Position numbers and translations under genes: made by a program. DNA of 64,000 nt, from assembly GCA_033664045.1 (NCBI GenBank), contig GCA_033664045.1_3674.1; one strand, given 5' to 3'. Source of the stretch: a phage. This document shows, one piece after another, positions 8,621 through 35,040 of this stretch. Below the pieces are notes generated by a model. It was not told the DNA's origin. It was given only the letters and a program-made list of their open reading frames with translations, and did no database searches. Numbering within the stretch: the first letter of the stretch is position 1; each line of letters opens with the position of its first letter.

Positions 8621-8626
8621 CACTAG

Positions 8627-8654
8627 GCCCTGCCCGAAAGGGTGGGGCTTTTTG
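8627..8654 (+). terminator. rho-independent terminator
   Basis: hairpin gccctgcccgaaagggtggggc followed by TTTTTG. Confidence 0.6.
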
Positions 8655-22947: not shown

Positions 22948-22984
22948 TACTTGAAAATTCCTGGCATATCAAGTATAAGGGGGA

Positions 22985-23440: not shown

Positions 23441-23579
23441 TTTGTATATGGAAATATTTTAGGAGGTATTATTTTATATAGAATTGTCACGGTAGGTAAT
23501 TAGCATGCTAACTAAATTTATGAAATGCGAAAAGTTCTCATTTAGAATTTTGAATGATAATCATTCTCGTTTGCAGAAT

Positions 23580-23605
23580 AACGGGCACCCCCGGTGATTG
23601 TCTCC
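23580..23605. repeat. 26-bp repeat, left arm of perfect inverted repeat
   Basis: aacgggcacccccggtgattgtctcc; exact reverse complement at 32392-32417. Confidence 0.6.
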
Positions 23606-23712
23606 CGGCCCCTACTGCCCCGGCTTGTTATTATAGTAACACACAGGACAAAGAAAGCAAGAAGTTTTTTGCATAAATTTTTAGACGATAATGATAATCG
23701 TTCTCATTTTAT

Positions 23713-23741
23713 GCAGCGCCCATCCCCGGTGGTTGTCTCCC
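23713..23741. repeat. degenerate direct copy of the 23580 repeat
   Basis: gcagcgcccatccccggtggttgtctccc, preceded by gataatcgttctcatttt as the first copy is by gataatcattctcgttt. Confidence 0.4.
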
Positions 23742-23963
23742 TGTCACCGGTGCCTGCCGTCCTTTCGATATGTATATTGTGCCACCTGGCGGGGCCGCTG
23801 TCAACACTTTTCAAAAAATTTTTCTAACCTGATGCGCTAACCGCTGCAACCTGGCGGGGCCAGCCTGGCAGGACCTAACTGACCAGGTAGGAGAGAATGA
23901 AGGCTTGCAAACCTGGTGGGCCTATGCTATAGGATAGGTAACAATTGAAGAGGAGGTACAAAA

Positions 23964-24140
23964 ATGAAAGGTAATATAATCCCCCTGGAAAATGTAGCTA
24001 TTAATGACGCTGAGGCTATCGCCCTGGTTGAAAAGGCTATGGCGGGAGCGTTGGAACATAAAGAAGAGTACGAAAAAATGATGGTTAACCTGGCAGGGGC
24101 GGCGGCTGGAGAATTCTACCCAAAAAATAATTTTAACTGA
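23964..24140 (+). CDS. hypothetical small protein (58 aa)
   Basis: not in track (<60 aa); strong RBS AGGAGGT 7 nt before ATG; clean 59-codon frame. Confidence 0.5.
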   Translation: MKGNIIPLENVAINDAEAIALVEKAMAGALEHKEEYEKMMVNLAGAAAGEFYPKNNFN

Positions 24141-24224
24141 TGGTTGACAGCTCGTACAGTTATTGTTATTCTTATCCTCGCAAGGTGAACAACACCACAC
24201 CAATTAACAGAGAGGATAAAAATC

Positions 24225-24422
24225 ATGAACGCCTACGGAATCAAAGTACGTCGCAACACTCGCCAGGTGGTCACCGATCAAATGGTTTGCCGGGTGGATG
24301 TAACCATCAACAACGGGCAAGGCCTTTATAAATTCCGTCGCGGTCAGAGCTATACCCGGCAGCAGCTTAATCGTTGCGCCCTGACAAAAGGTCAGATAAA
24401 CCACTGGTTTAATAAAAAATAA
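24225..24422 (+). CDS. hypothetical protein
   Basis: RBS GAGAGGA; basic small protein. Confidence 0.5.
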   Translation: MNAYGIKVRRNTRQVVTDQMVCRVDVTINNGQGLYKFRRGQSYTRQQLNRCALTKGQINHWFNKK

Positions 24423-24486
24423 GTATTGACATATAGTCCGACACCAAATACACTAAAAGCACAAAAGACACTAAGAGGATAAAATC

Positions 24487-24885
24487 ATGAAAACCACTAC
24501 CTTTAATTTTGATAATGCGGACTTTTCTTTTTCTGATGTCAAGAACTGCCGCCGTGATCGTGGATTTTACAAGGCCTATAATCTGGTGGGCCTGGACGAT
24601 GACAATAATTTGCACGAAGTAGCTGAGATCCGGTATTATGCCGCCGCCAGCGGGAACACTCACTACTGCGTTTTTTGGATACACGACAACAAGAACAATA
24701 AGTACGGCTATACTGGAGGCAAGGCGAGCGGTCACGGTTATGATAAAGCCAACGCAGCACTTCAGAGCGCATTAAATGCTATGGGGATCACTGCCGACGG
24801 CTGGATCTACGAAGAAGAGTTTTTGTCGGCACTTGCTGACCGCCTGGGCTATAAAAAGCACATTGTAACATGCGCCCACGAATAA
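24487..24885 (+). CDS. hypothetical protein
   Basis: promoter TTGACA-N17-TACACT near 24426; RBS AAGAGGA. Confidence 0.55.
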   Translation: MKTTTFNFDNADFSFSDVKNCRRDRGFYKAYNLVGLDDDNNLHEVAEIRYYAAASGNTHYCVFWIHDNKNNKYGYTGGKASGHGYDKANAALQSALNAMGITADGWIYEEEFLSALADRLGYKKHIVTCAHE

Positions 24886-24967
24886 AAATTGTTGACACGC
24901 TGCAAAATTCAAGTAAACTGGGCACAAAAGGCGGGAATGTTTCCCGCCAACATAAAGGAAAAAGATC

Positions 24968-25372
24968 ATGAATAAGAACGTACGCCGCATCATGAACGAA
25001 CTGGCAAACGATGAAAAAATTATTGATATGCATTTGGTCAACATTTGCCGCCGTTGTGTAACATACAACAACCGCGCCGCAAAAGCGCGTGAGATGAACG
25101 CAAAAGGCACCTTAAAGCCATTCCAGGTGGTGGTAAAGGCCATTAAAGATGTAACTAATACGGCAAACCAGGTACAGGGGAACACCAACGAGAGTACCAA
25201 TATTGATCCGTCTTACGTAATGAAACGGATCCGGACTTGCAAGAATAAAGAGCAGGTGTATAACGTCATAGATTGGCTGGACTCCCTGGGCGATGTGGTT
25301 TACAATAGGTTTTCTGCAGCTATTGAGATTCAGTTAGACAGGTTGGACGGGAAAGTACTAAAAACTTACTGA
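24968..25372 (+). CDS. hypothetical protein
   Basis: promoter TTGACA-N16-TAAACT near 24893; leader hairpin ggcgggaatgtttcccgcc; RBS AAAGGAA. Confidence 0.55.
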   Translation: MNKNVRRIMNELANDEKIIDMHLVNICRRCVTYNNRAAKAREMNAKGTLKPFQVVVKAIKDVTNTANQVQGNTNESTNIDPSYVMKRIRTCKNKEQVYNVIDWLDSLGDVVYNRFSAAIEIQLDRLDGKVLKTY

Positions 25373-25373
25373 G

Positions 25374-25420
25374 TTTATTTTTAGATGGCCTTGACTTCAG
25401 GGCCATCAATAAAGTAAACT
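25374..25420 (+). repeat. 47-nt repeated hairpin element, copy 1
   Basis: tttatttttagatggccTTGACTtcagggccatcaataaagtaaact; stem tggcc/ggcca with TTGACT in loop. Confidence 0.5.
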
Positions 25421-25452
25421 AGTCTCAACTAAGCGAAAAAGGGGGCTTTAAG

Positions 25453-25572
25453 ATGAGCACTACACGCCAATACACAAAGGTAACTATTATCGTTTGCGTT
25501 GTCGGTTACATCCTGGCGCAAATGTTAATGAGTAGCGCCAACAGTTTTGCAAAATTTTTCTTAAATTTTTAA
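25453..25572 (+). CDS. hypothetical small hydrophobic protein (39 aa)
   Basis: not in track; RBS AAGGGGG before ATG; VTIIVCVVGYILAQMLM hydrophobic core. Confidence 0.4.
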   Translation: MSTTRQYTKVTIIVCVVGYILAQMLMSSANSFAKFFLNF

Positions 25573-25651
25573 TTGACAAGCTAACCCAAATCGGTATACT
25601 TAAACACGTAAACGGGAAAACTTCCCAGAACACACAAAAGGAGAAAACACC

Positions 25652-25993
25652 ATGACTACTATGACCGCCACAGAAAAAGCTATGCAGATCGCCGCGCTGA
25701 AAAAACAGATCGCAGACCTTGAGAACAAGATCGATAACTTTGAAATCGACGAGGACAAGTACGACGAAAACTATGACGAATGGTTAGACGAGATCTACGG
25801 CGAAATTATGATCGGAAACATTTCTTTTCTTCCGTCGCGTATCCTCAAGGAGCTGGATCCTATCGCTTACCGCTGCGGATTTAGCGACTACATCGACAGC
25901 TTGGATATTGAGGACGATGAAGAGTACCAAGAATTACAGACAGAGCTCGAAGAAGTGAAAGAAGAGCTTGCAGAACTGGAAGAAAACGAGTAA
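25652..25993 (+). CDS. hypothetical highly acidic protein
   Basis: promoter TTGACA-N16-TATACT; RBS AAGGAGA; roughly 30 percent D+E with coiled-coil-like C-terminus. Confidence 0.55.
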   Translation: MTTMTATEKAMQIAALKKQIADLENKIDNFEIDEDKYDENYDEWLDEIYGEIMIGNISFLPSRILKELDPIAYRCGFSDYIDSLDIEDDEEYQELQTELEEVKEELAELEENE

Positions 25994-25995
25994 AA

Positions 25996-26042
25996 TTTAT
26001 TTTTAGATGGCCTTGACTCCAGGGCCATCAATAAAGTAAACT
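25996..26042 (+). repeat. 47-nt repeated hairpin element, copy 2
   Basis: tttatttttagatggccTTGACTccagggccatcaataaagtaaact. Confidence 0.5.
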
Positions 26043-26083
26043 TTATACTGTTAACACTGAACTAATGCATAGGAGTTAAAACC

Positions 26084-26329
26084 ATGGCAGCACTAATCAC
26101 CAAATATTATGCCCCTACCAACACCAAAAGCGCCCGTATCATGGTAAAAGGCTTCGGACGTAAAAAGGTTTACACCTGGGATTATGCCTTAGACACAGAA
26201 GACAACTACACCAACGCGATGACCGATTTTATTAATGATCTGAACACGCGGATCTTGACAAATTATCAAATTACCGATATTGCCTATATAGGGGAAGGCG
26301 GGATCTGTTTTGTCGGTATCGTCAAATAG
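26084..26329 (+). CDS. hypothetical protein
   Basis: RBS AGGAG. Confidence 0.55.
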   Translation: MAALITKYYAPTNTKSARIMVKGFGRKKVYTWDYALDTEDNYTNAMTDFINDLNTRILTNYQITDIAYIGEGGICFVGIVK

Positions 26330-26406
26330 GCTGTTTTTTCGGTGGTCCTGGTAGCAGGGCCATCTATAAAGATAGTTTATCAACACAATGAAAGGAGAAA
26401 GTACAC

Positions 26407-26760
26407 ATGATCAGCGGGGCTAGTTTTATTATTGGCGCTATTGCTACGGCTTTAATTGTAAACAAGATCCAGGATAAAAAAGAAAGAGGAAGTACCGCCC
26501 TTGCAGAATATCCATTTTGGACATTCAACGATAACGAAGATTATATTATAAAGTATAAAAATAAAGAAGGCGACCAAGTAACACCGCGACCGATCCCGGC
26601 TTACAAAATGCAGGAAACACTATACCGCCTGGAGGCGGGGGGCGCAAAAATTGTGGACTTTTGGGGATACGACCACACAGATCAGGAAGTTATAAAGCGC
26701 CGTATCCGGGCTATTCAGGCCAATATTGAAGTTAGCAAGGGTGGAATATATGAAAATTAA
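26407..26760 (+). CDS. hypothetical protein
   Basis: RBS AAAGGAGA. Confidence 0.55.
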   Translation: MISGASFIIGAIATALIVNKIQDKKERGSTALAEYPFWTFNDNEDYIIKYKNKEGDQVTPRPIPAYKMQETLYRLEAGGAKIVDFWGYDHTDQEVIKRRIRAIQANIEVSKGGIYEN

Positions 26761-26947
26761 TTTCGAGAAAATTGTAAAGCGCCCTCATGATTCCGAAGAG
26801 CTGCCAGAACGCCGACAGCGTAACAATAAACTGAATAAGCCAAAAAGATTTGGGAAGATCTGGCGGAATCATTATGATCGTAAATTGCCCGGCCTACTTT
26901 TGGAACGTGAACGACAGGCAGAACGATACCGCCATAAAGACAAATAA
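26750..26947 (+). CDS. hypothetical basic protein
   Basis: ATG at 26750 after AAGGGTGGA; overlaps upstream stop. Confidence 0.5.
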   Translation: MKINFEKIVKRPHDSEELPERRQRNNKLNKPKRFGKIWRNHYDRKLPGLLLERERQAERYRHKDK

Positions 26948-26955
26948 CAACCAAC

Positions 26956-26984
26956 GCCCCGCCATTGTGCGGGGCTTTTTATTT
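26956..26984 (+). terminator. rho-independent terminator
   Basis: gccccgccattgtgcggggc + TTTTTATTT. Confidence 0.6.
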
Positions 26985-27166
26985 CTATCCTACGAATAGC
27001 GCCCCTGGTTGGCCCTGTAAGCGCCAAAAAGGCCCCCACCTATGCAATCGCCCCCCTTTAACCTGAAAACATCGCCCAGGGCCGTTTTATGGCGTTAAAA
27101 ATATCATTGACATCGTCAACAGGTTAGCTATACTAACCACATCAAAGAGAGAAAGGAGTAAACGCC

Positions 27167-27427
27167 ATGCGTAAATTAAAAAATTTTGATAAAGTTGATG
27201 TTATCCTGAATAATTTTTACTACTGCAACAATAAGGCTATTTGGTGGCGTGATAGTTCCACCGATAAAGTCAAGGCGCGCTTTCTTCAGGGGCACTGGCA
27301 AGGCCGCCCAGTGATTAAAATCATGGGGCAATTGGTAGCGTTTAAAAATTGCCGCCGTGTTGATGACGTTGAGGAGATTTTAAACATTTTGCGCCACAAT
27401 AATTTAAAAAATAGTGTTGACAAGTAA
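27167..27427 (+). CDS. hypothetical protein
   Basis: promoter TTGACA-N16-TATACT near 27104; RBS AAAGGAG. Confidence 0.55.
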   Translation: MRKLKNFDKVDVILNNFYYCNNKAIWWRDSSTDKVKARFLQGHWQGRPVIKIMGQLVAFKNCRRVDDVEEILNILRHNNLKNSVDK

Positions 27428-27444
27428 ATCTCAATAAGTATAAT
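27417..27444 (+). promoter_or_regulatory. sigma70-like promoter TTGACA-N16-TATAAT followed by leader hairpin
   Basis: gTTGACAagtaaatctcaataagTATAATtaaacacacaGGCGGGaaaacttCCCGCC. Confidence 0.55.
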
Positions 27445-27501
27445 TAAACACACAGGCGGGAAAACTTCCCGCCACTAACAAAGAAAACAGGAGAAAATAT
27501 C

Positions 27502-28125
27502 ATGACCACCGTTAACATTACCACAGGTTACAATTTATCTTTCGACGTGCTGACCGATGAACAAAAAGAAAAAGCTATTGAAATGGTCCGCGAAAGAGAA
27601 GAACACAGCGGGGATAACTTTTTTGCAGAAAGTGTAATTGAAGACTATAAAGAACATATCTTTCCAGAGTATGGCCTTGAAGATACCAAGGTACATTGGT
27701 CCGGATTTTGGTGCCAGGGCGACGGCGCATCAATCAGTGCGGAAAACGTGGATTTAGAAAAATTCTTGCGTAAAGTAAAGGCCCTTACCAAGTTCCGATC
27801 AATTCGTCACTTGTTCGGCACAATGCACGATGGCGAACTATCCGCAAGCGTTGAGCGTGATCCATATAGCCGCTATAGTCACGAAAACACTGTAAGCGGG
27901 TACATCGATACTACATGGCTAGACCTGACCGCCAAACAAGAAAATAAAGTGGAAGATCTGGAAGAGCTGATCACCGAGACGGTACGGGAGCTATCCCGCA
28001 AGGTTTACGTAGACCTGGAGCAAGCTTATCTTGAACAATTTACTACCGAAAACCTGATCGGCCTTATCGAGGCCAATGATTGGCGGTTTGATGTGGATGA
28101 ATATGGCGAGATGACTTTTTCATAA
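27502..28125 (+). CDS. hypothetical acidic protein
   Basis: RBS CAGGAGA; 207 aa. Confidence 0.55.
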   Translation: MTTVNITTGYNLSFDVLTDEQKEKAIEMVREREEHSGDNFFAESVIEDYKEHIFPEYGLEDTKVHWSGFWCQGDGASISAENVDLEKFLRKVKALTKFRSIRHLFGTMHDGELSASVERDPYSRYSHENTVSGYIDTTWLDLTAKQENKVEDLEELITETVRELSRKVYVDLEQAYLEQFTTENLIGLIEANDWRFDVDEYGEMTFS

Positions 28126-28214
28126 ATAAAGTGTTGCAATAACCTAAAAACCTGCTATATTAAAACTCAAGGGGCAAGACGTTTGCCCCCACACAAAACA
28201 AAGAGGAAAACATC

Positions 28215-28595
28215 ATGAAAAACACCACTAAAGCTATTGACACCGTTATGTTTAACCTGGTTACCTTTCGCGAGGATATGAAAGATCTTCCGCGTGAAAC
28301 AGTGTGCGACCATATCGAAAACTATCGCAAACTAATCAAAGAGTTGCCTTTAAAACGTGATCAGTATGCGGCTAACGCCATGCTTAATGCCATGATCAAA
28401 AAGATGATCCAGTGTGATTTAACTCTGGCCTATGACTATGCGGGTGGTCGTTTTGCAGTATACAATCAGCCCGTGCCTGGTATGAGCACCACCGAAGAAT
28501 TGCACGCGCTCAATCTAAAACAAGACGTGTGGGATAGTATGCCTCGCGTGGTGGTATGGGTAGAAAGCGGAAAGATTTACGGCGATAATTTTTAA
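28215..28595 (+). CDS. hypothetical protein
   Basis: promoter TTGCAA-N16-TATATT; leader hairpin ggggcaagacgtttgcccc; RBS AAAGAGGA. Confidence 0.55.
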   Translation: MKNTTKAIDTVMFNLVTFREDMKDLPRETVCDHIENYRKLIKELPLKRDQYAANAMLNAMIKKMIQCDLTLAYDYAGGRFAVYNQPVPGMSTTEELHALNLKQDVWDSMPRVVVWVESGKIYGDNF

Positions 28596-28659
28596 TCAGG
28601 TAACAGGCGGCATATTTGCCGCCTTATTGTTAATCAGAACTGTAAAAGAGGTACATAGA

Positions 28660-29031
28660 ATGGAATTTATTATTTTGGCTGTACTGGTTGCCTTGTTTAA
28701 CGCCTGGATCGCTGGCAAGATGGGAAGATCCGCCTTTTTATGGTTTATTATATCTATTTTCCTGGGGGTGGTTGCAACTATTGTATTGGTTATCCTTGCA
28801 ATTGTTGACAAGGGGAATAATAGAAAGGGTAAAGTATTTTCAGACCTGTACGACGCTCAAACGTTTGTCAACGCCTATTATAGTGATCTCCCAGTCTCCC
28901 TACGTTGCAGCCTTGCACAACAGGTTTTCGATGAAGCTAAAACCAGAGATCACGCCCATGAGATTTGTTTAACTGAGGCGGATCGCTTATTTGAGAGGAA
29001 TAGAAAATATGTGGGCCAGCCGTTTAAATAA
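28660..29031 (+). CDS. hypothetical membrane protein
   Basis: ATG at 28660 after AAAAGAGG; two hydrophobic helices. Confidence 0.5.
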   Translation: MEFIILAVLVALFNAWIAGKMGRSAFLWFIISIFLGVVATIVLVILAIVDKGNNRKGKVFSDLYDAQTFVNAYYSDLPVSLRCSLAQQVFDEAKTRDHAHEICLTEADRLFERNRKYVGQPFK

Positions 29032-29250
29032 TACCACGTTAATTAATCCGCTTAGTGAAGATTTGAGGCCAGCCGCCTGGCGGGATGGATTCAATAATGA
29101 AAGCTTTATTTTCAGGCCTGATCTTAAGGAATTTTATAACAATGGATCGGACAACGACAGAGATAATTTTTCTTGTAATGTGCGTGGTGATAATACTCCT
29201 GGGGGCCATTGCAAACCACGTAACTGCTAACAGGGGGAAGGGGGGAGACG

Positions 29251-29370
29251 ATGACAACCAAGGATAAGCCCCGCACCGATAAGGCGCGCCGTGCTATGGT
29301 ATGGCTTGAGATCATCGCCCTTGAAATATTGTTAGGTGTAGGGATGTATTTTATCGCTGTAAGTAACTGA
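29251..29370 (+). CDS. hypothetical small membrane-anchored protein (39 aa)
   Basis: not in track; G-rich RBS before ATG; basic N-terminus then hydrophobic helix; terminator follows. Confidence 0.35.
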   Translation: MTTKDKPRTDKARRAMVWLEIIALEILLGVGMYFIAVSN

Positions 29371-29374
29371 TAAC

Positions 29375-29415
29375 GGCCCCCGATCCCTGGGGGCCTAACT
29401 TTTTAAAATTTTTTT
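29375..29415 (+). terminator. rho-independent terminator
   Basis: ggcccccgatccctgggggcc followed by long T-tract. Confidence 0.55.
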
Positions 29416-29513
29416 CTCCTTGGGTGTTGCAATCCGATCCAGAATATGGATAATAACAATCAACGGGGAGACACTCCCCACCACACAGACAAAATTCCAA
29501 AAGGAGAAACAAA

Positions 29514-29714
29514 ATGAGCAACAATATCCGCGTTATTAACTTCAAAAAAGAAGAAAAAATTGCTGTGCTGGTTGATGGTCAAGAAATCTTCAAGGGCGAC
29601 TATGAAGATCATCAAACGGCGATTAGTATCACTCGCGTGATCGGTTACCATAATTTCTACCCCCAAGGCGCTGAGGCAGCAGTTAAACGAATCAAAGAGA
29701 TTGTAGGCCTGTAA
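29514..29714 (+). CDS. hypothetical protein
   Basis: promoter TTGCAA-N17-ATAATA; leader hairpin ggggagacactcccc; RBS AAAGGAGA. Confidence 0.5.
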   Translation: MSNNIRVINFKKEEKIAVLVDGQEIFKGDYEDHQTAISITRVIGYHNFYPQGAEAAVKRIKEIVGL

Positions 29715-29716
29715 AA

Positions 29717-29762
29717 TTTATTTTTAGATGGCCTTTACTTCAGGGCCATCAATAAAGTAAAT
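29717..29762 (+). repeat. 47-nt repeated hairpin element, copy 3
   Basis: tttatttttagatggcctttacttcagggccatcaataaagtaaat. Confidence 0.5.
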
Positions 29763-29805
29763 TTAAACCCTGTTAAAATAATCAGTGCAAAAAGGAGTAA
29801 TGATC

Positions 29806-30105
29806 ATGTTTATACCCGCCAATAATCTTTATTTCTTTGATGGTCAGATCGTAGACGGTGTGGAAGTGGAGATCACTGGGTGCCCTGGTGGTCAGGCTAT
29901 GACTTTTCGGAATAATGCCTTTGATGATTCTCATATCGTTATGAGAATGGAAGTTACAAAGCTGGACGACAAGAAAACGCTTATTGACTATTCCGTGAAA
30001 GATCATCCAGACTACCACATGATCTATGGTGATTTGTGTATTGTTGACCGTGACAAGGTGGGCGGCATTGTGATCGCTATTGTGAACGATGTTTTCTCTG
30101 AATAA
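29806..30105 (+). CDS. hypothetical protein
   Basis: ATG at 29806 with AAGGAG RBS (track start 29785). Confidence 0.5.
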   Translation: MFIPANNLYFFDGQIVDGVEVEITGCPGGQAMTFRNNAFDDSHIVMRMEVTKLDDKKTLIDYSVKDHPDYHMIYGDLCIVDRDKVGGIVIAIVNDVFSE

Positions 30106-30329
30106 TTCCGGCAAATGATGCAAAATAAGGCCCCTAGCAGGGCCTGCAGCGATATAATCACATAAAGGCTATGCGGTTGCATGGCCTTTATTATTTTAGC
30201 GTTACAGCGGCCCCCAAGGCGCTTAAAAAATTTTTAAAGAAGTACTTGCATCAAGCCCTACAATATGGATAATAGGACGTGTCAGGGGGGCGGCCCCAAT
30301 CATTAACCGGATAGATAGGAGTTAAAACC

Positions 30330-30614
30330 ATGGCTATTGTTACTGCTGGCGATGTAGTAGAAATGGAAGCAAAATACTTAAAAGCGGGTATGCATATCCT
30401 ACGGAATGATCAAGAGTTATTATTAACGATGGTCGACTATAATCCCGGCCAGGATTATCCAAGCATCGACTACTTTTTTGAGTATGTTGATGAAGAATTA
30501 AAAGAGGATGAGGCCTATTGCGGTGAGTTCTGCAATTTCTTTTGTCCTGATGAGGTTGTAAAGGTTATCTATCAACCTGGCGTAGCTTTCCCTCTGCACG
30601 CTATCAATAAATAA
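30330..30614 (+). CDS. hypothetical protein
   Basis: promoter TTGCAT-N17-ATAATA; RBS TAGGAG. Confidence 0.55.
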   Translation: MAIVTAGDVVEMEAKYLKAGMHILRNDQELLLTMVDYNPGQDYPSIDYFFEYVDEELKEDEAYCGEFCNFFCPDEVVKVIYQPGVAFPLHAINK

Positions 30615-30679
30615 ACCTGGCGGGGCCGAAAAGGCCCCTACAGCATAAAATCATAAAAAATAAAGAGAGGCAAATCATC

Positions 30680-30913
30680 ATGATGGAACAAATTAAACGC
30701 GCTGAGGCTATTAATGGCAATGTGATCTATTTTGTCAGCAAAAACGAAAAAGGCGTACCATATGCGGCGGTAATAGTACAGCCTGACGGAGATTATTGGT
30801 TTACTGTATACGGATCTTATTCTTTTGGGCGTCCAGTGCATGATAAAATTTTGAAAGTAGCGAACCCCACCGGGAAGAATATCACGGCAGAAAAATTTTT
30901 TGAAAAGTGTTGA
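30680..30913 (+). CDS. hypothetical protein
   Basis: RBS AAAGAGAGG. Confidence 0.5.
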   Translation: MMEQIKRAEAINGNVIYFVSKNEKGVPYAAVIVQPDGDYWFTVYGSYSFGRPVHDKILKVANPTGKNITAEKFFEKC

Positions 30914-30988
30914 CATGACCATATAAAACTGTAGTATATAAATCAAAGGGGGCAACAAGCCCCACCAACCACAAAGAGGATAAAAATC

Positions 30989-31168
30989 ATGGCTATTATT
31001 GCAAAAACTGAGATCGTAGGCTTAGATTCTATTCTCCTCGCATATGAGGAAGCTATAGAAATGTATGTGGTTTCCTATGGTGAGTATATCCGTGAATATA
31101 AATCTATTGATCTGGCTTTTGAATGTTATATTCGCCAGGTAAATAAAGCATATGATGATTATCGTTAA
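30989..31168 (+). CDS. hypothetical small protein (59 aa)
   Basis: not in track; promoter TTGACA near 30910, leader hairpin gggggcaacaagcccc, RBS AAAGAGGA. Confidence 0.45.
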   Translation: MAIIAKTEIVGLDSILLAYEEAIEMYVVSYGEYIREYKSIDLAFECYIRQVNKAYDDYR

Positions 31169-31264
31169 AATAGTTTGACAACAAACAACCATCTAACAAA
31201 GCATAATACATAAGGTGGTAGAATGATCTGATCCGCCACCTGGAACAAAGAAGAGGTAAACACC

Positions 31265-31369
31265 ATGAAACAGAAATTAATTGATGCAGTGATCTTGGTT
31301 ATTGCCCTAGGTATTGGCCTGATTGCAACCATGGCTAATGTGATCTTGTCTTCCAACGGTATCGGGTGA
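31265..31369 (+). CDS. hypothetical hydrophobic peptide (34 aa)
   Basis: not in track; RBS AAGAAGAGG; single predicted TM helix. Confidence 0.35.
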   Translation: MKQKLIDAVILVIALGIGLIATMANVILSSNGIG

Positions 31370-31378
31370 GGTTGACAA

Positions 31379-31594
31379 ATGATCACTAACAAAACAGGCA
31401 AAACGGAATTTTTACGCAACTTGCAGATCGGCAAGCCTGAGATCTGGTATTGCACTAAAACACCACGTGACGAAATGAAAGACTTCACCGCCACGCTGCA
31501 ACGGGTAAAGATATCTATCACGCAGAAAAAGGCCTTACTAGTGGTGGAAGGGGAGATCCCCCAAACCGTTGTTATAGTTGAGCGTACAGCATAG
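31379..31594 (+). CDS. hypothetical protein
   Basis: ORF close after the 34-aa peptide. Confidence 0.5.
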   Translation: MITNKTGKTEFLRNLQIGKPEIWYCTKTPRDEMKDFTATLQRVKISITQKKALLVVEGEIPQTVVIVERTA

Positions 31595-31683
31595 TTTAAT
31601 CTATACCGTACGCCCCATTAACTAACAAAGCATAAACAGGCGGCGGTAACCGCCTTAAACGCAGCAGAAAGAGGATAGACAAC

Positions 31684-31968
31684 ATGAAAAAGATGATCGC
31701 AGTGGTTGCCCTGGTTATTGGACTTAATGCGCCTGTAATGGCTAAAGAGCTGGCAAAAGAGGTAGATCTAACTGATATCCATGCCGTCAATCAAATCGGT
31801 GTTACTTATCGGTTATGCCTTGCCGCAAAAACTTTCCAGGATGGCACAACAGAGTACTACGGATTCGAAGGCATCCGGTGCGGTGAGCTTGCTCGCGACC
31901 TTAAAGAAGATCCAGACCTGGAGGATCTGCCGATAACCGTAAACGGGAAAACTTACGTGAACCGTTAA
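31684..31968 (+). CDS. hypothetical secreted protein
   Basis: signal-peptide-like MKKMIAVVALVIGLNAPVMA; RBS AAAGAGGA. Confidence 0.5.
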   Translation: MKKMIAVVALVIGLNAPVMAKELAKEVDLTDIHAVNQIGVTYRLCLAAKTFQDGTTEYYGFEGIRCGELARDLKEDPDLEDLPITVNGKTYVNR

Positions 31969-31970
31969 CC

Positions 31971-32105
31971 ATGAGAAAGATAATTATCACCATGGGGATC
32001 GTGGCGGGATCGCTGGCGCTCTTTCTCCTTATGGTTAGGTATGTGCTGATCAGTATTGTCCTGACAGTCAGTGATCTATTGGAAACGGTTGGCACCTTGT
32101 TTTAA
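31971..32105 (+). CDS. hypothetical hydrophobic peptide (44 aa)
   Basis: not in track; starts 2 nt after upstream stop; weak RBS. Confidence 0.3.
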   Translation: MRKIIITMGIVAGSLALFLLMVRYVLISIVLTVSDLLETVGTLF

Positions 32106-32118
32106 AGAGCGATAGAAA

Positions 32119-32310
32119 ATGAATATCGAACAAGTTAGAAAGGTATTAACGGTACTGCGTTATCATAATCATAGAAAGGTCATAGACGATCCTGATTATG
32201 TTGATTCAAGCCTGGAAGGGGATACACTGCAAGCCATAAGCAACATGCAAGAATTGCTCAAGCGCATGACAGAGAAAAACCGACCGGACTACATAGGCGA
32301 AAAAATATAA
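32119..32310 (+). CDS. hypothetical protein
   Basis: ORF followed by terminator-like hairpin and T-tract near 32322-32350. Confidence 0.5.
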   Translation: MNIEQVRKVLTVLRYHNHRKVIDDPDYVDSSLEGDTLQAISNMQELLKRMTEKNRPDYIGEKI

Positions 32311-32391
32311 TCCTTATAAACTACAAAACAGGGCTTGCAATGGTCCTGTTTTTTGTTATACTTGTTTCACGGGTGGCACCTGGCGACGGGG

Positions 32392-32417
32392 GGAGACAAT
32401 CACCGGGGGTGCCCGTT
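32392..32417. repeat. 26-bp repeat, right arm of perfect inverted repeat
   Basis: ggagacaatcaccgggggtgcccgtt is the exact reverse complement of 23580-23605. Confidence 0.6.
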
Positions 32418-32522
32418 ATATAAAAAACTATAAAAACCGTTGACATCTGCCGGGTGGTGGGGTAGCATTTACCTTGAAGGGGCAAAAGTGCCCACACAAC
32501 AACCAGAAGAGAGGAAAACACT

Positions 32523-32795
32523 GTGTCAAGCTGGATTAATCAAGAAGTAGAATCACGTTTTAATGCTATTTGGGATCTCATCGAAAAAGAGGACGGAACA
32601 TCAAGCCCCTACCTCAACAATTTGGAATTCCATTTTGTGGAAGCGATGAACGCAGAACATGATCACGAAGGTGGCGCGGATGATTTCGCTAAAGGTTATG
32701 GCTTTAACAATGCCAACGAAATGATCGAGTCGGTCGTACTCCAGGCTGAGGAAGATTATCAATTAAAAACGCTTGAATTCTGCCGCCATAAGTAA
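32523..32795 (+). CDS. hypothetical protein
   Basis: GTG start; promoter TTGACA-N17-TAGCAT near 32443; RBS GAGAGGA. Confidence 0.5.
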   Translation: MSSWINQEVESRFNAIWDLIEKEDGTSSPYLNNLEFHFVEAMNAEHDHEGGADDFAKGYGFNNANEMIESVVLQAEEDYQLKTLEFCRHK

Positions 32796-32856
32796 TAAGA
32801 TAATGACACGGGCCAAAAGGCCCACCAATCAGAACCGCACAAAGAGGAAAAACATC

Positions 32857-33120
32857 ATGAAACGTCTTGACCAGCTCAAATTAGTTCAATATATGGCTTA
32901 TCGTGTTCTTGAAGTCCAAAAAGGTAGCAAAAAAGAGGTTTGCGAGAAAGCATATAAGATCTTTACCCGTAAAAAAGATGATTGGATGTTACGCCAGACC
33001 AAAAAGGCTGACATCTTGGGGTACCTGGAAGAAGAGATCCGGCTTGAAGAACAAGAAGAGATCCGCCGCAGTGAGGCAGATTATCAGGCAGCTTGGGAAA
33101 ACTGGATGAGCAACAAATAA
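32857..33120 (+). CDS. hypothetical protein
   Basis: ATG at 32857 after AAAGAGGAAA; leader hairpin gggccaaaaggccc. Confidence 0.5.
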   Translation: MKRLDQLKLVQYMAYRVLEVQKGSKKEVCEKAYKIFTRKKDDWMLRQTKKADILGYLEEEIRLEEQEEIRRSEADYQAAWENWMSNK

Positions 33121-33265
33121 TACAACAAGTTACATGGTCAGGGGGCAATAAAGCCCCTTTATCGCATAAAAATTATGCTATCCTTGGTTGACAGGGATCG
33201 GCAGTTTTGCTATATTCTTTTTTGAAGGGAAGTTGTAAGAAAATTAACTAAGAGGTAAAAACACC

Positions 33266-33685
33266 ATGAACATTAAATCTAATAATCCGGCATATAGCTT
33301 TGATAACGCTTTTTGTCACGGTCCGGCGGCGAAAGGATTCGAAATCGATGGTAAACTAATTATTGTCAATGTTGACGGGGAAGAGGTTGCAGTATATCCG
33401 GTGGCAGACGTTAAAAGCCGTTTGCAATGCCGCATGGATGTTACCGCCTATCAGCTTGATCCGGTCCGCATAGTTGCCCTGGTCCTGGAAGAAGAAATTA
33501 AAGCCATGCACCATAGCAACAGGTTTATTGGTGACGCACAGGATAATATGAAGGTATGCCGCCATAAAGTTAATGAAGTGCTTAAAGAATATGGCTTTAA
33601 AGATCTGATGATCAAACGTGAGGAAAAATTCCGTTATCGTAACGACCTGGCAAATCGGATTTTTGAAATATACGAATCATTATAA
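33266..33685 (+). CDS. hypothetical protein
   Basis: promoter TTGACA-N17-TATATT near 33186; RBS TAAGAGG; last gene of plus-strand block. Confidence 0.55.
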   Translation: MNIKSNNPAYSFDNAFCHGPAAKGFEIDGKLIIVNVDGEEVAVYPVADVKSRLQCRMDVTAYQLDPVRIVALVLEEEIKAMHHSNRFIGDAQDNMKVCRHKVNEVLKEYGFKDLMIKREEKFRYRNDLANRIFEIYESL

Positions 33686-33703
33686 TTTATTAACTGAATT
33701 ATC

Positions 33704-33730
33704 AAGGGGCTTAAGGCCCCTTTCTTTTTG
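33704..33730 (+). terminator. rho-independent terminator closing the plus-strand block
   Basis: aaggggcttaaggcccc + TTTCTTTTTG. Confidence 0.6.
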
Positions 33731-34179
33731 TTTGCTCTTTTCCTACCACAAACGGCCCAGCCTGGCAAGTGGAATAATTGACTAGCCATCAATCCCGCAC
33801 ACTGTACAAATATACATATAAAATAGATATTGCATAACCTTTCATTGTGTGGTAGCAGGGCCATTTTTACACGTTTTTCCTTCCAAAATTGCACGTAATG
33901 CAGCTATTGCACAAAATTTAACCTGATGCACATCTTCAGTATACTGTCAACAATTAAAAACCCTTATAAGTCATACACTTACACAAACCAAAAAGCGTGT
34001 CCTACGTGAAAAATCGGGTGTAACTATAGCCGACAGATCTCAGAATCCACGTACGATCACCATTCTATAGCCTGCAAAGTATTTATTCCAACCACAGAAT
34101 AACGGAATAGTCAATACCTGTATAAAATAATTATTCGTATAAACTGCATAACATAAACCCGCCCAGGTGTCAACATTTT

Positions 34180-35040
34180 TCGTAAACAGTCCGAAATTGT
34201 CACGGTGAGTTATCATAAATAGAGAAATATTTAGTCGTCTAATGTTTACTGTACATTACTATACTGACTGGAATCATTAGATGACTAAGAGAAAGATAAG
34301 AAATAATTAACAATGTAAGTATTTTACCTGCAACAATAAGGCAACTATGCAAACGAATGTCATGGCGCGACGGAGTCGCGACATAATATAAAAGCAGTAA
34401 CCATCACCCCCGTGATAGTTTGTCTGCAAACTATTAATCAGATCATAGTTGCCTTGTATTTAGTTAATCATGACATAACAAGCAAGGCAACTATAGATCT
34501 TCTAATAGTTGCCCTGCTTTTATATTATGTCATCTATTGTAAATCAGTTAATTGTTTTCATGCAAACGAATGTCATGGCTTATCATTTTTGAGTAAATAG
34601 TTTGTTTGTAAACAATCTATACGTAAACAGTTAACTATGTAAACTATTAGATATGTAAACTATTGGTTATGTAGACTATCAGGAATGTAAACAGTAAAGC
34701 GAGTGAATAGTGAGAGCGTAAACAGTCAGGCATGTCAATTATGTTTAATGTGCCCAGTATGTCACTATTGTGTCTAAAGTGTCATAGTATGTCACAGTAT
34801 GTCAGACAAGTTTTTCTCCTCTTTGTCAAGTGCTGCATGAAAAATTTACAAACTGGTATGGTAGCATTTTTGCGGCCCTGTTTACATTCAGTAATGTATG
34901 TATAATCCTTGTTGTGTGGGCGTTTGGACGTCTAGACGGTTGGAAGTCTGCAGGTCAATATCTAATCTATTGGCTGCTAACTATATCCCACACAAATAGT
35001 AAGAAATATGATTGTTATATGCGTAAACAGTAACTCATGT
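34180..35040. repeat. iteron-rich non-coding region
   Basis: at least 8 copies of GTAAAC(A/T)(G/A)T; 5 copies of (A)GTATGTCA at about 10-11 bp spacing (34757-34805); inverted ATAGTTGCC/GGCAACTAT pairs; palindrome cgcgacggagtcgcg. Confidence 0.55.

What the first reader, a model, noticed from the sequence alone, without database searches (positions are those of the whole stretch)
23964..33685. Array of ~25 small genes as stand-alone promoter / leader-hairpin / RBS cassettes
Over about 10 kb nearly every small ORF has its own near-consensus sigma70 promoter (TTGACA or TTGCAA, 16-17 nt spacer, TATAAT-like), then within a few nt of the predicted start a GC-rich hairpin (ggcgggaaaacttcccgcc, ggggcaagacgtttgcccc, gggggcaacaagcccc, ggggagacactcccc), then an ACAAA(G)-rich spacer and a strong RBS. 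The products are small, often strongly acidic, hydrophobic or secreted, and none matches a housekeeping family. This looks like a host-takeover or anti-defence island built from one reused expression cassette, with the 5'-terminal hairpin a candidate mRNA-stability or regulatory device.
Basis: seen in the sequence. Interest (0 to 1): 0.75.

Follow-up and report, generated by a model that had tools for sequence, protein, structure and literature searches.

The report
Phage early-gene promoter–hairpin cassettes
This is the small-gene region of an rV5-like E. coli phage, where many tiny genes of unknown function each have their own host-type promoter and about ten also carry a conserved leader hairpin; the layout matches the promoter/stem-loop cassettes (PeSLs) already described in T4-like phages, so it is a new example of a known design.

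Summary
The window is a Vequintavirus (rV5-like coliphage, about 95% identical to phage Mangalyan). The region 23964-33685 holds 28 + strand genes. Nineteen have a sigma70-like site upstream, and sites scoring at least 10/12 number 11 against 1.8 expected and 0 on the other strand. Only 10-11 genes have the full cassette of promoter, GC hairpin, A/C-rich leader and strong RBS. The hairpin starts 8-13 nt after the -10 hexamer and never carries a T-tract. Across nine related genomes its stems vary 3-5 times less than its loops and flanks, and the -35 hexamers never vary. The same geometry occurs in Av-05, phi92-like phages and the jumbo phage phAPEC6. Gene gains and losses between relatives have their junctions inside these cassettes. 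This matches the PeSL cassettes of T4-like phages, with the hairpin mostly in the transcribed leader. I infer that the hairpin acts as a 5'-proximal mRNA protector or insulator rather than a terminator. That step is untested. The products have no recognisable function, so the "anti-defence island" reading cannot be assessed. The element is a new member of a known kind and of moderate interest.

The parts
24892..24970 (+). Full cassette for gene 24968-25372: TTGACA-N16-TAAACT (24892-24919), hairpin ggcgggaatgtttcccgcc (24930-24948), A-rich leader, AAGGA RBS, ATG
   Evidence: the stem is invariant in 7 genomes, and L004 carries the inverted hairpin
25573..25654 (+). Cassette for gene 25652-25993 (113 aa, net charge -26): TTGACA-N16-TATACT (25573-25600), weak hairpin gggaaaacttccc (25614-25626), leader, AGGAG, ATG. 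It is 74% identical over 66 nt to the cassette at 27417
   Evidence: (D6); annotated as P192 in rV5
27417..27504 (+). Cassette for gene 27502-28125 (207 aa): perfect consensus TTGACA-N16-TATAAT (27417-27444), hairpin ggcgggaaaacttcccgcc (27455-27473), tail ACTAACAAAGAAAAC, AGGAG, ATG
   Evidence: The Av-05 orthologue keeps promoter, hairpin and CA-rich leader with a different hairpin sequence
28134..28217 (+). Cassette for gene 28215-28595: TTGCAA-N16-TATATT with TG extension (28134-28161), hairpin ggggcaagacgtttgcccc (28171-28189), tail CACACAAAACAAAGAGG, ATG
29427..29516 (+). Cassette for gene 29514-29714: TTGCAA-N16-GATAAT (29427-29454), hairpin ggggagacactcccc (29465-29479). It lies directly after T-tract terminator 29375-29395
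   Evidence: In six of the eight compared genomes the loop differs (ggggagctaatcccc) while the stem is kept
30246..30332 (+). Cassette for gene 30330-30614: TTGCAT-N16-GATAAT (30246-30273, 8/12), hairpin ggggggcggcccc (30285-30297). It lies after terminator 30162-30191
   Evidence: L004 has ggaggtgatgcctcc, a compensatory G-C to A-T change
30910..30991 (+). Cassette for gene 30989-31168: TTGACA-N16-TAGTAT (30910-30937), hairpin ggggcaacaagcccc (30949-30963), tail ACCAACCACAAAGAGG
   Evidence: The gene is shared at about 93% nucleotide identity with phi92-like phage PATM, where it sits behind a different promoter
31175..31267 (+). Cassette for genes 31265-31369 and 31379-31594: TTGACA-N18-AAGCAT (31175-31204), longer hairpin ggtggtagaatgatctgatccgccacc (31214-31240). 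This is an indel hot spot
   Evidence: Mangalyan uses the same leader up to the ATG in front of a different gene and has extra genes (two of them behind their own promoter+hairpin cassettes) inserted here
32440..32525 (+). Cassette for gene 32523-32795: TTGACA-N17-TAGCAT (32440-32468), hairpin gggcaaaagtgccc (32480-32493), tail ACACAACAACCAGAAGAGAGG, GTG start. It lies downstream of terminator 32325-32352
   Evidence: annotated as P168 in rV5
32773..32859 (+). Cassette for gene 32857-33120: TTGAAT-N17-TAAGAT (8/12), hairpin gggccaaaaggccc (32810-32823). Its CA-rich leader (32832-32850) is the junction of a one-gene indel
31638..31686 (+). Leader hairpin aggcggcggtaaccgcct (31638-31655) plus RBS for genes 31684-32310; no convincing promoter. 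Inverted to its reverse complement in rV5, V18 (one base differs), ev158, Murica and L003
25368..25421 (+). 54-nt repeated promoter/stem-loop element, copy 1 (gene 25453): hairpin gatggccTTGACTtcagggccatc spans the -35 hexamer; TTGACT-N18-TAAACT
   Evidence: (D1). L003 lacks everything between copies 1 and 2 and keeps one hybrid copy
25990..26043 (+). 54-nt element, copy 2 (gene 26084)
   Evidence: annotated as a terminator in phage Murica
26325..26378 (+). Diverged copy (61%) of the 54-nt element ahead of genes 26407-26947
29711..29764 (+). 54-nt element, copy 4 (gene 29806)
24144..24172 (+). Promoter without leader hairpin (TTGACA-N17-TATTCT, TG-extended) for gene 24225
   Evidence: annotated as P195B in rV5
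24426..24454 (+). Promoter without hairpin (TTGACA-N17-TACACT) for gene 24487
   Evidence: annotated as P195A in rV5
27107..27134 (+). Promoter without hairpin (TTGACA-N16-TATACT, 11/12) for gene 27167. L004 has an extra gene here, and the junction is exactly the TTGACA hexamer
   Evidence: annotated as P186 in rV5
33188..33216 (+). Promoter without hairpin (TTGACA-N17-TATATT, TG-extended, 11/12) for gene 33266-33685
   Evidence: annotated as P164 in rV5
26956..26985 (+). Canonical intrinsic terminator (GC stem followed by TTTTTATTT). Others are at 28605-28634, 29375-29405, 30162-30201, 32325-32362 and 33704-33732. These differ from the leader hairpins
   Evidence: annotated as terminators in Murica
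33139..33165 (+). GC hairpin after gene 32857-33120. In L003 it is recombined with hairpin 33704-33722, which deletes gene 33266-33685

Best explanation
The region is the hyperplastic small-gene region of an rV5-like phage, presumed to be expressed early. It is built from PeSL-type regulatory cassettes. Each module has an A/T-rich upstream tract, a near-consensus sigma70 promoter read by unmodified host RNA polymerase, usually a GC-rich stem-loop, an A/C-rich unstructured leader, a strong Shine-Dalgarno sequence and a small gene of unknown function.

In the main class here the stem-loop lies 8-13 nt after the -10 hexamer. That places it at about +3 to +7 of the predicted transcript. It has no U-tract.

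I infer that the stem-loop works in the RNA, not as a terminator. In primary transcripts it is a 5'-proximal hairpin that hinders 5'-end-dependent decay by RppH and RNase E. In read-through transcripts it sits between cistrons, where it could block 3' exonucleases and cap the downstream fragment after cleavage in the AU-rich promoter sequence. In both cases it keeps the RBS in a constant, unstructured context.

Independently of that role, the repeated cassette sequences (-35 hexamer, hairpin, leader/RBS) are the short homologies at which whole gene modules are gained, lost and swapped, both within Vequintavirus and with phi92-like phages.

Shown: the cassette anatomy, its statistics, its conservation and the recombination junctions. 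Inferred: early timing, transcription start positions and the stabilising role of the hairpin.
For: Identity: about 95% identical to Vequintavirus genomes.

Promoters: 11 sites of at least 10/12 on the + strand against 1.8 expected and 0 on the - strand. The -35 hexamers show 0 differences in 354 cells across nine genomes. Six or seven are annotated as sigma70 promoters in rV5.

Hairpin position and sequence: the distance from the -10 hexamer is fixed (8-13 nt, sd 1.4), while the distance to the ATG varies (19-34 nt). Stem substitution density is 0.032, against 0.157 in loops and 0.093 in the pre-hairpin segment. Loop swaps, G-run slippage, wobble changes and one compensatory pair keep the stems intact.

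Generality: the hairpin start peaks at +10 to +13 from the -10 hexamer in Av-05, phi92, PATM, phAPEC6 and Mangalyan as well.

Not terminators: T makes up 5.5% of the first 12 nt after the stem, against 22% in intergenic DNA. Canonical T-tract terminators are separate elements. Three hairpin cassettes (29427, 30246, 32440) follow such a terminator, either directly or after a short gap, where an attenuator would be redundant. A hairpin inside the transcript would also act on the gene's own mRNA.

Recombination junctions: between two 54-nt elements (L003); at TTGACA (L004); in the CA-rich leader (rV5 and Mangalyan extra gene at 32832-32850); at the ATG (Mangalyan at 31280); inside GGGGC/GCCCC hairpins (L003). 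Single genes are shared at about 93% nucleotide identity with phi92-like phages, and the homology ends at the RBS/ATG and at the stop codon.

Background: PeSLs are defined in PMC2839356 and PMC4122927. The 5'-terminal stem-loop stabilisers of Emory 1992, Bouvet & Belasco 1992 and Bricker & Belasco 1999 are listed in PMC3997798. rV5 gp11 is a probable homologue of Srd (PMC3606486), and T4 Srd stimulates RNase E on host mRNA (PMC4980113).
Against: No transcription start, half-life or timing data exist for any Vequintavirinae phage in the searched library. The 5'-terminal position of the hairpin is therefore a prediction. It leaves about 2-7 unpaired nucleotides, typically 3-5. From memory of the Belasco work, protection needs at most a few unpaired nucleotides, so this is borderline.

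Many equally strong promoters elsewhere in the window have short leaders without any hairpin. The hairpin is therefore not needed for expression.

Some genomes carry stem-breaking changes (g27502 in L015 and L003; g30989 in L014 and L018).

The stems are almost perfectly Watson-Crick, so energies do not show which strand is structured or whether the structure forms in RNA or DNA. The substitution counts are not phylogenetically independent.

The PeSL authors showed that one RB49 stem-loop lowered downstream lacZ expression and read the stem-loops as attenuators.
Confidence: 0.55

Rival explanations
1. The stem-loops are attenuators or terminators of read-through from upstream modules, as originally proposed for PeSLs. 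They would insulate each module transcriptionally.
For: One RB49 PeSL stem-loop reduced downstream lacZ expression, and the authors proposed this role. The 54-nt element hairpin lies upstream of its own start site and is annotated as a terminator in Murica. Most modules lack a separate terminator.
Against: No U-tract follows any leader hairpin: T is 5.5% of the first 12 nt. The phage uses canonical T-tract terminators elsewhere in the same region. Hairpins of the main class lie inside the gene's own transcript. Three of them lie shortly downstream of a canonical terminator. The fixed distance to the -10 hexamer is not explained.
Confidence: 0.15
2. The inverted repeats act only at the DNA level, as recombination hot spots or binding sites for a phage or host DNA-binding protein. 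Any RNA hairpin is incidental.
For: Indel junctions fall inside hairpins (L003). Whole-hairpin inversions occur at 24930 and 31638. The PeSL authors speculated about a GGGG...CCCC-binding recombination protein. The stems are symmetric Watson-Crick, so they would form on either strand.
Against: Junctions occur just as often at TTGACA, in the leader/RBS and at the ATG. The hairpin is therefore not the privileged crossover site. The fixed spacing to the -10 hexamer and the position inside the transcribed leader, seen in four phage lineages, point to a transcript-related constraint. Loop and stem sequences are too varied for one sequence-specific protein.
Confidence: 0.12
3. The hairpins are operators for a phage RNA-binding regulator. 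Candidates are a translational repressor, an endonuclease that shuts off these genes after their presumed early expression, or a nut/boxB-like antitermination site.
For: A recurrent core GGCGGGAA-N3-5-TTCCCGCC is present at 24930, 27455 and (partly) 25614. The same core appears in phi92, PATM, phAPEC6 and Mangalyan cassettes. Its position near the RBS suits translational control.
Against: Other hairpins of the same positional class have unrelated stems and loops (ggggcaa.., ggggag.., gggcc..). Loops vary freely between genomes. There is no Rfam match. No boxA-like partner motif was seen. The stems (5-8 bp) are too short for RNase III.
Confidence: 0.08
4. The hairpins are terminators for antisense (- strand) transcription entering from the convergent unit at 34-36 kb.
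For: On the - strand six hairpins are followed by T-rich tails and were called terminator-like (27473, 24948, 29483, 28190, 31655, 30963). The region abuts a convergent junction.
Against: The T-rich tails are simply the complement of the A-rich initial transcribed sequence. Most are interrupted (TGTGTGTTTA, ATTGTTATTA). No - strand sites scoring at least 10/12 exist in the region. The same cassettes occur in phages with other genome layouts.
Confidence: 0.05

Closest known systems
PeSLs (promoter-early stem-loops) of T4-like phages RB49/phi1, T4/PST and KVP40/nt-1 (Arbiol et al. 2010, PMC2839356; Comeau et al. 2014, PMC4122927)
   Same: A composite of an A/T-rich tract, a strong sigma70-like promoter, a G-run/C-run stem-loop and an SD+ATG, placed in front of small ORFan genes. 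The cassettes are clustered in a hyperplastic region and repeated many times. Indels between close relatives have junctions in the cassette (-10 to SD, stem-loop, AT-rich tract).
   Different: The host phage belongs to Vequintavirinae, not the T4 group. The dominant stem-loop position here is downstream of the -10 hexamer, in the transcribed leader. In RB49/phi1 the commonest positions are between -35 and -10 or over the -10 hexamer. No U-tract is present, so I favour a protective role over attenuation. Mini-circles were not testable.
5'-terminal stem-loop mRNA stabilisers of E. coli (ompA and papA 5' UTRs, and engineered 5' hairpins; Emory 1992, Bouvet & Belasco 1992 and Bricker & Belasco 1999, cited in PMC3997798)
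   Same: A stable GC hairpin within a few nucleotides of the predicted 5' end, followed by an unstructured leader and a strong RBS.
   Different: The 5' ends are not mapped. The predicted 2-7 unpaired nucleotides are borderline for protection. No half-life data exist.
Clusters of sigma70 promoters ahead of small genes taken to be early in large virulent phages (T4 early promoters, PMC2988021; RpoD-like promoters of jumbo phage CBB, PMC5259590; 33 predicted rV5 promoters, PMC3606486)
   Same: Near-consensus host promoters with A/T-rich upstream tracts in front of many short hypothetical genes. Such genes are usually interpreted as host-takeover genes.
   Different: Those descriptions do not include a conserved leader hairpin at a fixed distance from the -10 hexamer.
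Morons of lambdoid phages (a gene with its own promoter and terminator)
   Same: Autonomous single-gene expression modules that are gained and lost as units.
   Different: Morons are not flanked by a shared repeated cassette, and their insertion is thought to be illegitimate recombination. Here the shared promoter, hairpin and RBS sequences are the crossover sites.
Lambda nut (boxA/boxB) sites and T7 early-region RNase III sites
   Same: Small hairpins in early phage transcripts close to promoters or between cistrons.
   Different: There is no boxA, and the loops and stems are not conserved enough for an N-like protein. The stems are far too short for RNase III.

Membership tests
PeSL (promoter-early stem-loop cassette) | Strong sigma70-like promoter (-35/-10) with an A/T-rich upstream tract | tested here: met
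   11 sites of at least 10/12 on the + strand against 1.8 expected. The -35 hexamers are invariant in nine genomes. A/T tracts lie upstream (aaaaattgTTGACA, aaaatagtgTTGACA, aaaattttttgaaaagtgTTGACA).
PeSL (promoter-early stem-loop cassette) | Adjacent stable stem-loop, typically a G-run paired with a C-run, in one of several positions relative to the promoter | tested here: met
   10-11 leader hairpins of -4 to -13 kcal/mol, plus four copies of a hairpin spanning the -35 hexamer. In Av-05 some hairpins span the -10 hexamer. There are three positional classes.
PeSL (promoter-early stem-loop cassette) | Ends in an SD and the start codon of a small ORFan gene, and is clustered in a variable (hyperplastic) region | tested here: met
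   28 genes of 34-207 aa, with all PHROG hits 'unknown function' and no Pfam hits. Gene content differs between close relatives.
PeSL (promoter-early stem-loop cassette) | Recombination between cassettes generates indels or replacements of gene modules | tested here: met
   Junctions lie in the 54-nt element, at TTGACA, in the leader/RBS, at the ATG and inside GC hairpins. Single-gene exchange with phi92-like phages is bounded by the RBS and stop codon.
PeSL (promoter-early stem-loop cassette) | Stem-loop acts as a transcription terminator or attenuator; cassettes form mini-circles | not testable with these tools
   Needs reporter assays and inverse PCR. The sequence argues against efficient intrinsic termination, since there is no T-tract.
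PeSL (promoter-early stem-loop cassette) | Described only in T4-like myoviruses | tested here: not met
   The window is a Vequintavirus. This is a limit on taxonomic scope, not a mechanistic feature.
5'-terminal stem-loop mRNA stabiliser | Hairpin no more than a few unpaired nucleotides from the true 5' end of the transcript | not testable with these tools
   Predicted only. The stem starts 8-13 nt after the -10 hexamer, giving about 2-7 unpaired nucleotides if transcription starts at the 7th nt. No start-site data were found.
5'-terminal stem-loop mRNA stabiliser | Structure, not sequence, is conserved | tested here: met
   Substitution density is 0.032 in stems against 0.157 in loops. Loop swaps, whole-hairpin inversions, wobble changes and one compensatory change were seen. 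A few genomes carry disrupted stems.
5'-terminal stem-loop mRNA stabiliser | Removing the hairpin shortens mRNA half-life in an RNase E/RppH-dependent way | not tested
   This is an experiment.
Intrinsic (rho-independent) terminator | GC stem-loop followed directly by a U-tract on the transcribed strand | tested here: not met
   The tails after the 11 leader hairpins hold 7 T in 128 nt. The scan calls them terminator-like only on the - strand.
Anti-defence / host-takeover protein families (anti-restriction, DNA mimics, anti-CRISPR) | Sequence or fold similarity of the products to a characterised inhibitor | tested here: inconclusive
   No Pfam hit for the ten largest proteins. All PHROG hits are 'unknown function'. 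The 207-aa protein gave no PDB hit by sequence or profile. Its model (pLDDT 87.4) has no fold match. The other 27 proteins were not modelled.

The most novel reading that the evidence does not exclude
The leader hairpin may be a cross-family mark of phage mRNA. Its recurrent core is GGCGGGAA-N3-5-TTCCCGCC and its spacing to the -10 hexamer is fixed. It appears in Vequintavirinae, phi92-like phages and jumbo Asteriusvirus phages. On this reading, the hairpin exempts the mRNAs of these small genes from 5'-end-dependent decay that the phage itself turns up against host mRNA. rV5 encodes a probable Srd homologue, and T4 Srd stimulates RNase E. Selective host shut-off would then be written into a portable promoter-leader cassette that travels with each newly acquired gene.
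Probability: 0.2. Interest if true: 0.7.

Novelty: new member of a known kind. Interest (0 to 1): 0.35.

Why it matters
The finding extends the PeSL idea of portable promoter/stem-loop cassettes beyond T4-like phages. In that idea the cassettes both express orphan genes and act as crossover points for shuffling them. The same design is now seen in rV5-like, Av-05-like, phi92-like and jumbo coliphages, and single-gene exchange between subfamilies is visible. This helps explain how large virulent phages turn over their pools of small accessory genes.

The fixed position of the hairpin just after the predicted start site, and the U-free tail, give a concrete and cheap test of whether phages use 5' hairpins to protect these mRNAs. 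The cassettes are also ready-made compact expression parts (strong promoter, insulating hairpin, strong RBS) for phage and E. coli engineering.

Tried and rejected
1. Rfam at a permissive threshold over 21-37 kb gave one chance-level hit and no family for the hairpins.

Two of those seven repeat cassettes seen in phi92-like PATM (L087) and in rV5-like L004 (L125); the others were not classified. The rest are about what chance gives for 17 specified bases, so the scan says little about wider spread.

4. Comparing + and - strand folding energies and G-U counts to decide the functional strand was too noisy and came out nearly symmetric. The result is inconclusive.

5. A covariance model of the cassette was abandoned. 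MAFFT could not put hairpins of different stem and loop lengths in register, and a custom alignment cannot be supplied to the tool.

6. The search for related loci with the 207-aa protein returned only two close loci, so GenBank records were fetched one by one.

7. The tblastn search for the RB49 homologue of gene 32523, noted in the rV5 record, did not list RB49 among the 25 rows shown (123 records not listed). The direct link to the original PeSL phage was not followed.

8. Literature searches found no transcriptome or start-site data for Vequintavirinae, and no earlier description of leader hairpins in rV5, phi92 or phAPEC6.

Full report
**What the window is.** Region 23964-33685 matches 221 phage records. 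The best match is Escherichia phage Mangalyan at 95% over the full length, and 61 records cover at least 80% of the region. These phages belong to Vequintavirus, the rV5-like myoviruses. All genes under the match are annotated as hypothetical. The GC skew flips at about 36 kb. The region is therefore the distal end of a long + strand unit of small genes that converges on a - strand unit. This corresponds to rV5 ORFs 164-197.

**Checking the observation: genes and promoters.** I placed 28 + strand genes of 34-207 aa in the region, each with a Shine-Dalgarno sequence.
- The consensus scan found 53 sigma70-like sites against 33.7 +/- 5.8 in shuffles. The best sites were all on the + strand and in front of genes.
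- In my own count, sites of at least 10/12 number 11 on the + strand and 0 on the - strand. 300 dinucleotide shuffles gave 1.77 +/- 1.26, maximum 6. Sites of at least 11/12 number 4 against 0.13 expected.
- Including weaker sites, 19 of 28 genes have a candidate promoter.

**Checking the observation: hairpins.** A GC-rich leader hairpin is present in front of 10 genes, or 11 if gene 31684 with its unclear promoter is counted.
- Five good promoters have none.
- Four genes sit behind a 54-nt repeated element whose hairpin spans the -35 hexamer (family D1).
- The remaining genes are coupled to the gene before them or follow a terminator.

The pattern is real and far above chance, but it does not apply to "nearly every" gene.

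**Anatomy of the cassette.** The stem begins 8-13 nt after the -10 hexamer (mean 10.2, sd 1.4). It ends 19-34 nt before the start codon (sd 4.6). The hairpin is therefore anchored to the promoter, not to the RBS.
- The segment before the stem is 60% A. The tail after it is 56% A, 20% C and 7.5% T.
- In the first 12 nt after the stems there are 7 T in 128 bases, against an intergenic T fraction of 0.219 (P about 3e-7).
- Canonical terminators with T-tracts are separate elements, at 26956, 28605, 29375, 30162, 32325 and 33704. They are annotated as terminators in phage Murica.
- The scan calls the leader hairpins terminator-like only on the - strand. That happens because the + strand sequence before them is A-rich.
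- Repeat analysis confirms reuse of cassette parts. A 66-nt promoter+hairpin pair (25573 and 27417) is 74% identical. The 54-nt element has four copies. Two RBS/leader families of the form ACAAAGAGGAAAACATCATGA have six copies each.

**Is the pattern specific to this region?** Strong sigma70-like promoters are not. On the coding strand, sites of at least 10/12 occur at 8.2 per 10 kb in 1-22 kb, 5.7 per 10 kb in 36-64 kb, and 11.2 per 10 kb here. Many of those sites are plainly real promoters with short, hairpin-less leaders, for example 15267, 16467, 21584, 51392 and 49999. This agrees with the rV5 paper, which found 33 host-type promoters spread over the genome (PMC3606486). The combination of promoter and leader hairpin, however, is nearly confined to 24.9-32.9 kb, with one more copy at 7342. 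Elsewhere, hairpins that precede a gene are ordinary T-tailed terminators.

**Conservation.** I aligned the cassettes of the window with eight other Vequintavirus sequences: Mangalyan, rV5, V18, rV5_ev158, EduardKellenberger, Murica and two IMG/VR contigs.

The table gives the fraction of alignment cells that differ from the window.

| Segment | Fraction differing |
|---|---|
| -35 hexamer | 0 of 354 |
| -10 hexamer | 0.062 |
| Spacer | 0.086 |
| Pre-hairpin | 0.093 |
| Stem | 0.032 |
| Loop | 0.157 |
| Tail | 0.056 |
| SD and spacing | 0.096 |

- By column, 16% of stem columns vary, against 42% of loop columns.
- Individual changes keep the helix: loop replacements (29465, 32810), G-run slippage (28171, 30285), wobble changes (27455 in L004, 32480 in EduardKellenberger) and one compensatory pair (30285 in L004, GGAGG...CCTCC).
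- Two hairpins are replaced by their exact reverse complement in other genomes: 24930 in L004, and 31638 in rV5 and four others (one of them, V18, with one base changed). This preserves the stem and flips the loop.
- A few genomes carry stem-breaking changes, so the constraint is not absolute.
- These counts are not phylogenetically independent.

**The same design in other phages.**
- In Av-05 (Avunavirus), the orthologue of the 207-aa gene keeps TTGACA-N18-TACTAT, a different hairpin (ggcgatacaccgcc) and a CA-rich leader. Several neighbouring genes have TATTAT or TATACT followed by ACGGGGA..TCCCCGT. Other hairpins there span the -10 hexamer.
- In phi92 and PATM (Justusliebigvirus, a different subfamily), cassettes read TTGACA-N16/17-TAnnnT, then about 11 nt, then GGCGGGAAgtggTTTCCCGCC and an RBS.
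- In the jumbo phage phAPEC6 (Asteriusvirus), a nearly identical cassette is repeated in front of successive small genes: acTTGCAA-N17-TATAAT, then 11 nt, then GGTGGGGAAtagTTCCCCAC.
- Pooled over these phages, the hairpin start relative to the -10 hexamer peaks sharply at +10 to +13. Minor classes lie at -36/-37 and at -16 to -19.

**The cassettes are recombination junctions.** BLAST of the region against the relatives shows whole-gene indels. Their junctions are as follows.
- IMG/VR contig L003 lacks genes 25453 and 25652. One hybrid copy of the 54-nt element is left where the window has two.
- L003 also lacks gene 33266-33685. The junction lies inside the GGGGC...GCCCC hairpins at 33139 and 33704.
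- rV5, Mangalyan and L003 have one extra gene at 32832-32850, and EduardKellenberger shows the same-sized insertion. Where inspected (rV5) the junction lies in the CA-rich leader.
- Mangalyan has extra genes inserted at 31280. Two of them sit behind their own TTGACA promoter, hairpin and RBS. The shared leader runs right up to the ATG of a different gene.
- L004 has an extra gene at 27107, and the junction is exactly the TTGACA hexamer.
- Genes 30680-30913 and 30989-31168 are about 93% identical at the nucleotide level to genes of phi92-like phages that are otherwise too divergent for megablast. The homology starts at the RBS/ATG and stops at the end of the gene.

**Comparison with known systems.** This combination was described as PeSLs (promoter-early stem-loops) in the T4-like phages RB49 and phi1 and extended to T4/PST and KVP40/nt-1.
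- PeSLs are strong sigma70-like promoters with an AT-rich upstream tract, a G-run/C-run stem-loop in one of five positions, an SD and the ATG of an ORFan. They are concentrated in hyperplastic regions and mediate modular shuffling (PMC2839356, PMC4122927).
- All structural features of that definition are met here. What differs is the phage family and the dominant hairpin position. In RB49/phi1 the hairpin is most often between -35 and -10 or over the -10 hexamer. Here it is in the transcribed leader.
- The rV5 record notes that three ORFs of this unit resemble RB49 proteins.
- I found no paper describing these cassettes in rV5-, phi92- or phAPEC6-like phages. However, six or seven of the promoters are annotated in rV5.

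**Mechanism.** Shown: the promoters and stems are under purifying selection, the geometry is fixed, the tails are U-free, and the cassettes are crossover sites.

Inferred: transcripts start about 7 nt after the -10 hexamer, so the hairpin begins at about +3 to +7. A hairpin that is part of the gene's own transcript, lacks a U-tract, and in three cases follows a canonical terminator within about 100 nt is a poor candidate for an attenuator.

The best-fitting known role is that of a 5'-terminal stem-loop that hinders RppH- and RNase E-dependent decay (Emory 1992; Bouvet & Belasco 1992; Bricker & Belasco 1999, cited in PMC3997798). In read-through transcripts the same hairpin would sit between cistrons.

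One circumstantial link exists. rV5 gp11 is a probable Srd homologue (PMC3606486), and T4 Srd stimulates RNase E on host mRNA (PMC4980113). Phage mRNAs would therefore benefit from 5' protection.

Against this reading:
- the starts are unmapped;
- 3-5 unpaired nucleotides is borderline for protection;
- many strong promoters in the same phage do without a hairpin;
- RNA-level and DNA-level function could not be separated.

I put about 0.85 on [quoted passage not shown]. I put about 0.45 on "the leader hairpin mainly protects or insulates the mRNA". The combined explanation gets 0.55.

**The products.** All PHROG matches are families of unknown function, and there is no Pfam domain.
- Four proteins are strongly acidic, with net charges of -26, -23, -13 and -12. 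Nine have a hydrophobic segment, and one (31684) looks like a signal peptide.
- The host-takeover or anti-defence label is therefore a reasonable prior for such small phage genes, but it remains untested.

**Verdict.** The element is a new member of a known kind: PeSL-like cassettes outside the T4 group. One feature is testable and not previously emphasised, namely the promoter-anchored, U-free leader hairpin shared across several coliphage lineages.

Noticed in passing
window 23578-23606 and 32391-32419 (third, diverged copy about 23720-23770): A perfect 29-nt inverted repeat lies 8.8 kb apart and nearly brackets the whole gene array. It is part of a GC-rich element of about 45 nt found in ORF-free stretches. 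Across Vequintaviruses its outer stem switches between CACC..GGTG and CAGG..CCTG. There is no Rfam hit and the folding z-scores are weak. If both copies are transcribed from the + strand, the two RNAs would be complementary.
   Followed up: partly
window 32325-32362: A TG-extended promoter-like site (TTGCAA-N16-TATACT) is embedded in the stem of a T-tract terminator. It would fire into a 160-nt ORF-free stretch that contains one arm of the 29-nt repeat.
   Followed up: no
window 22950-23960, repeats at 23250-23435: About 1 kb without a convincing ORF holds three tandem copies of a 65-nt unit and several short T-rich repeats, just upstream of the gene array.
   Followed up: no
window 24930-24948 and 31638-31655 against loci L004, L011, L013, L014, L018, L003: Whole-hairpin inversions between genomes: the orthologous hairpin is the reverse complement (exact in all but V18, which differs at one base), so the stem is kept and the loop flipped. 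This suggests arm-to-arm recombination or template switching at these palindromes.
   Followed up: partly
window 30677-30906 and 30977-31170; L016 1501-1730; L017 1501-1694: Two single genes are about 93% identical at the nucleotide level to genes of phi92-like phages (Stephanstirmvirinae). The homology is bounded by the RBS/ATG and the stop codon. This indicates recent cross-subfamily transfer of single gene modules.
   Followed up: partly
one search hit list (for example MG065659, MG065647, MG065635): 23 GenBank records named 'Campylobacter phage', with host given as C. jejuni, match this coliphage region; those listed are about 93% identical over the full length. They look like rV5-like coliphages that are mislabelled or are contaminants.
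   Followed up: no
window 15267, 16129, 16467, 21584 (+ strand); 51392, 49999, 40201, 36919 (- strand): Near-consensus sigma70 promoters with leaders of 25-35 nt and no hairpin lie in front of genes all over the window, on both transcription units. Host-type promoters are thus a genome-wide habit of this phage, not a feature of one island.
   Followed up: partly
window 27502-28125: This acidic 207-aa protein is conserved from rV5-like phages to jumbo phages of five enterobacterial genera. Residues G58, G68, F69, Q72, G73, D74, G75 and H127 are invariant. It has a confident predicted fold with no PDB relative. Some records call it a YeeU-like antitoxin, which these searches do not support.
   Followed up: partly
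L002 (Av-05) about 8600-8652: In one Av-05 cassette the hairpin GGGGTGAatttaaTCACCCC contains the Shine-Dalgarno sequence itself, only 5 nt before the ATG. This is a different arrangement that may be translationally repressive.
   Followed up: no
window 33700-36000: An AT-rich stretch (GC 0.39) at the convergent junction of the two units has no convincing ORFs and many weak - strand promoter-like sites. It may correspond to the 'non-coding' box of the rV5 map.
   Followed up: no
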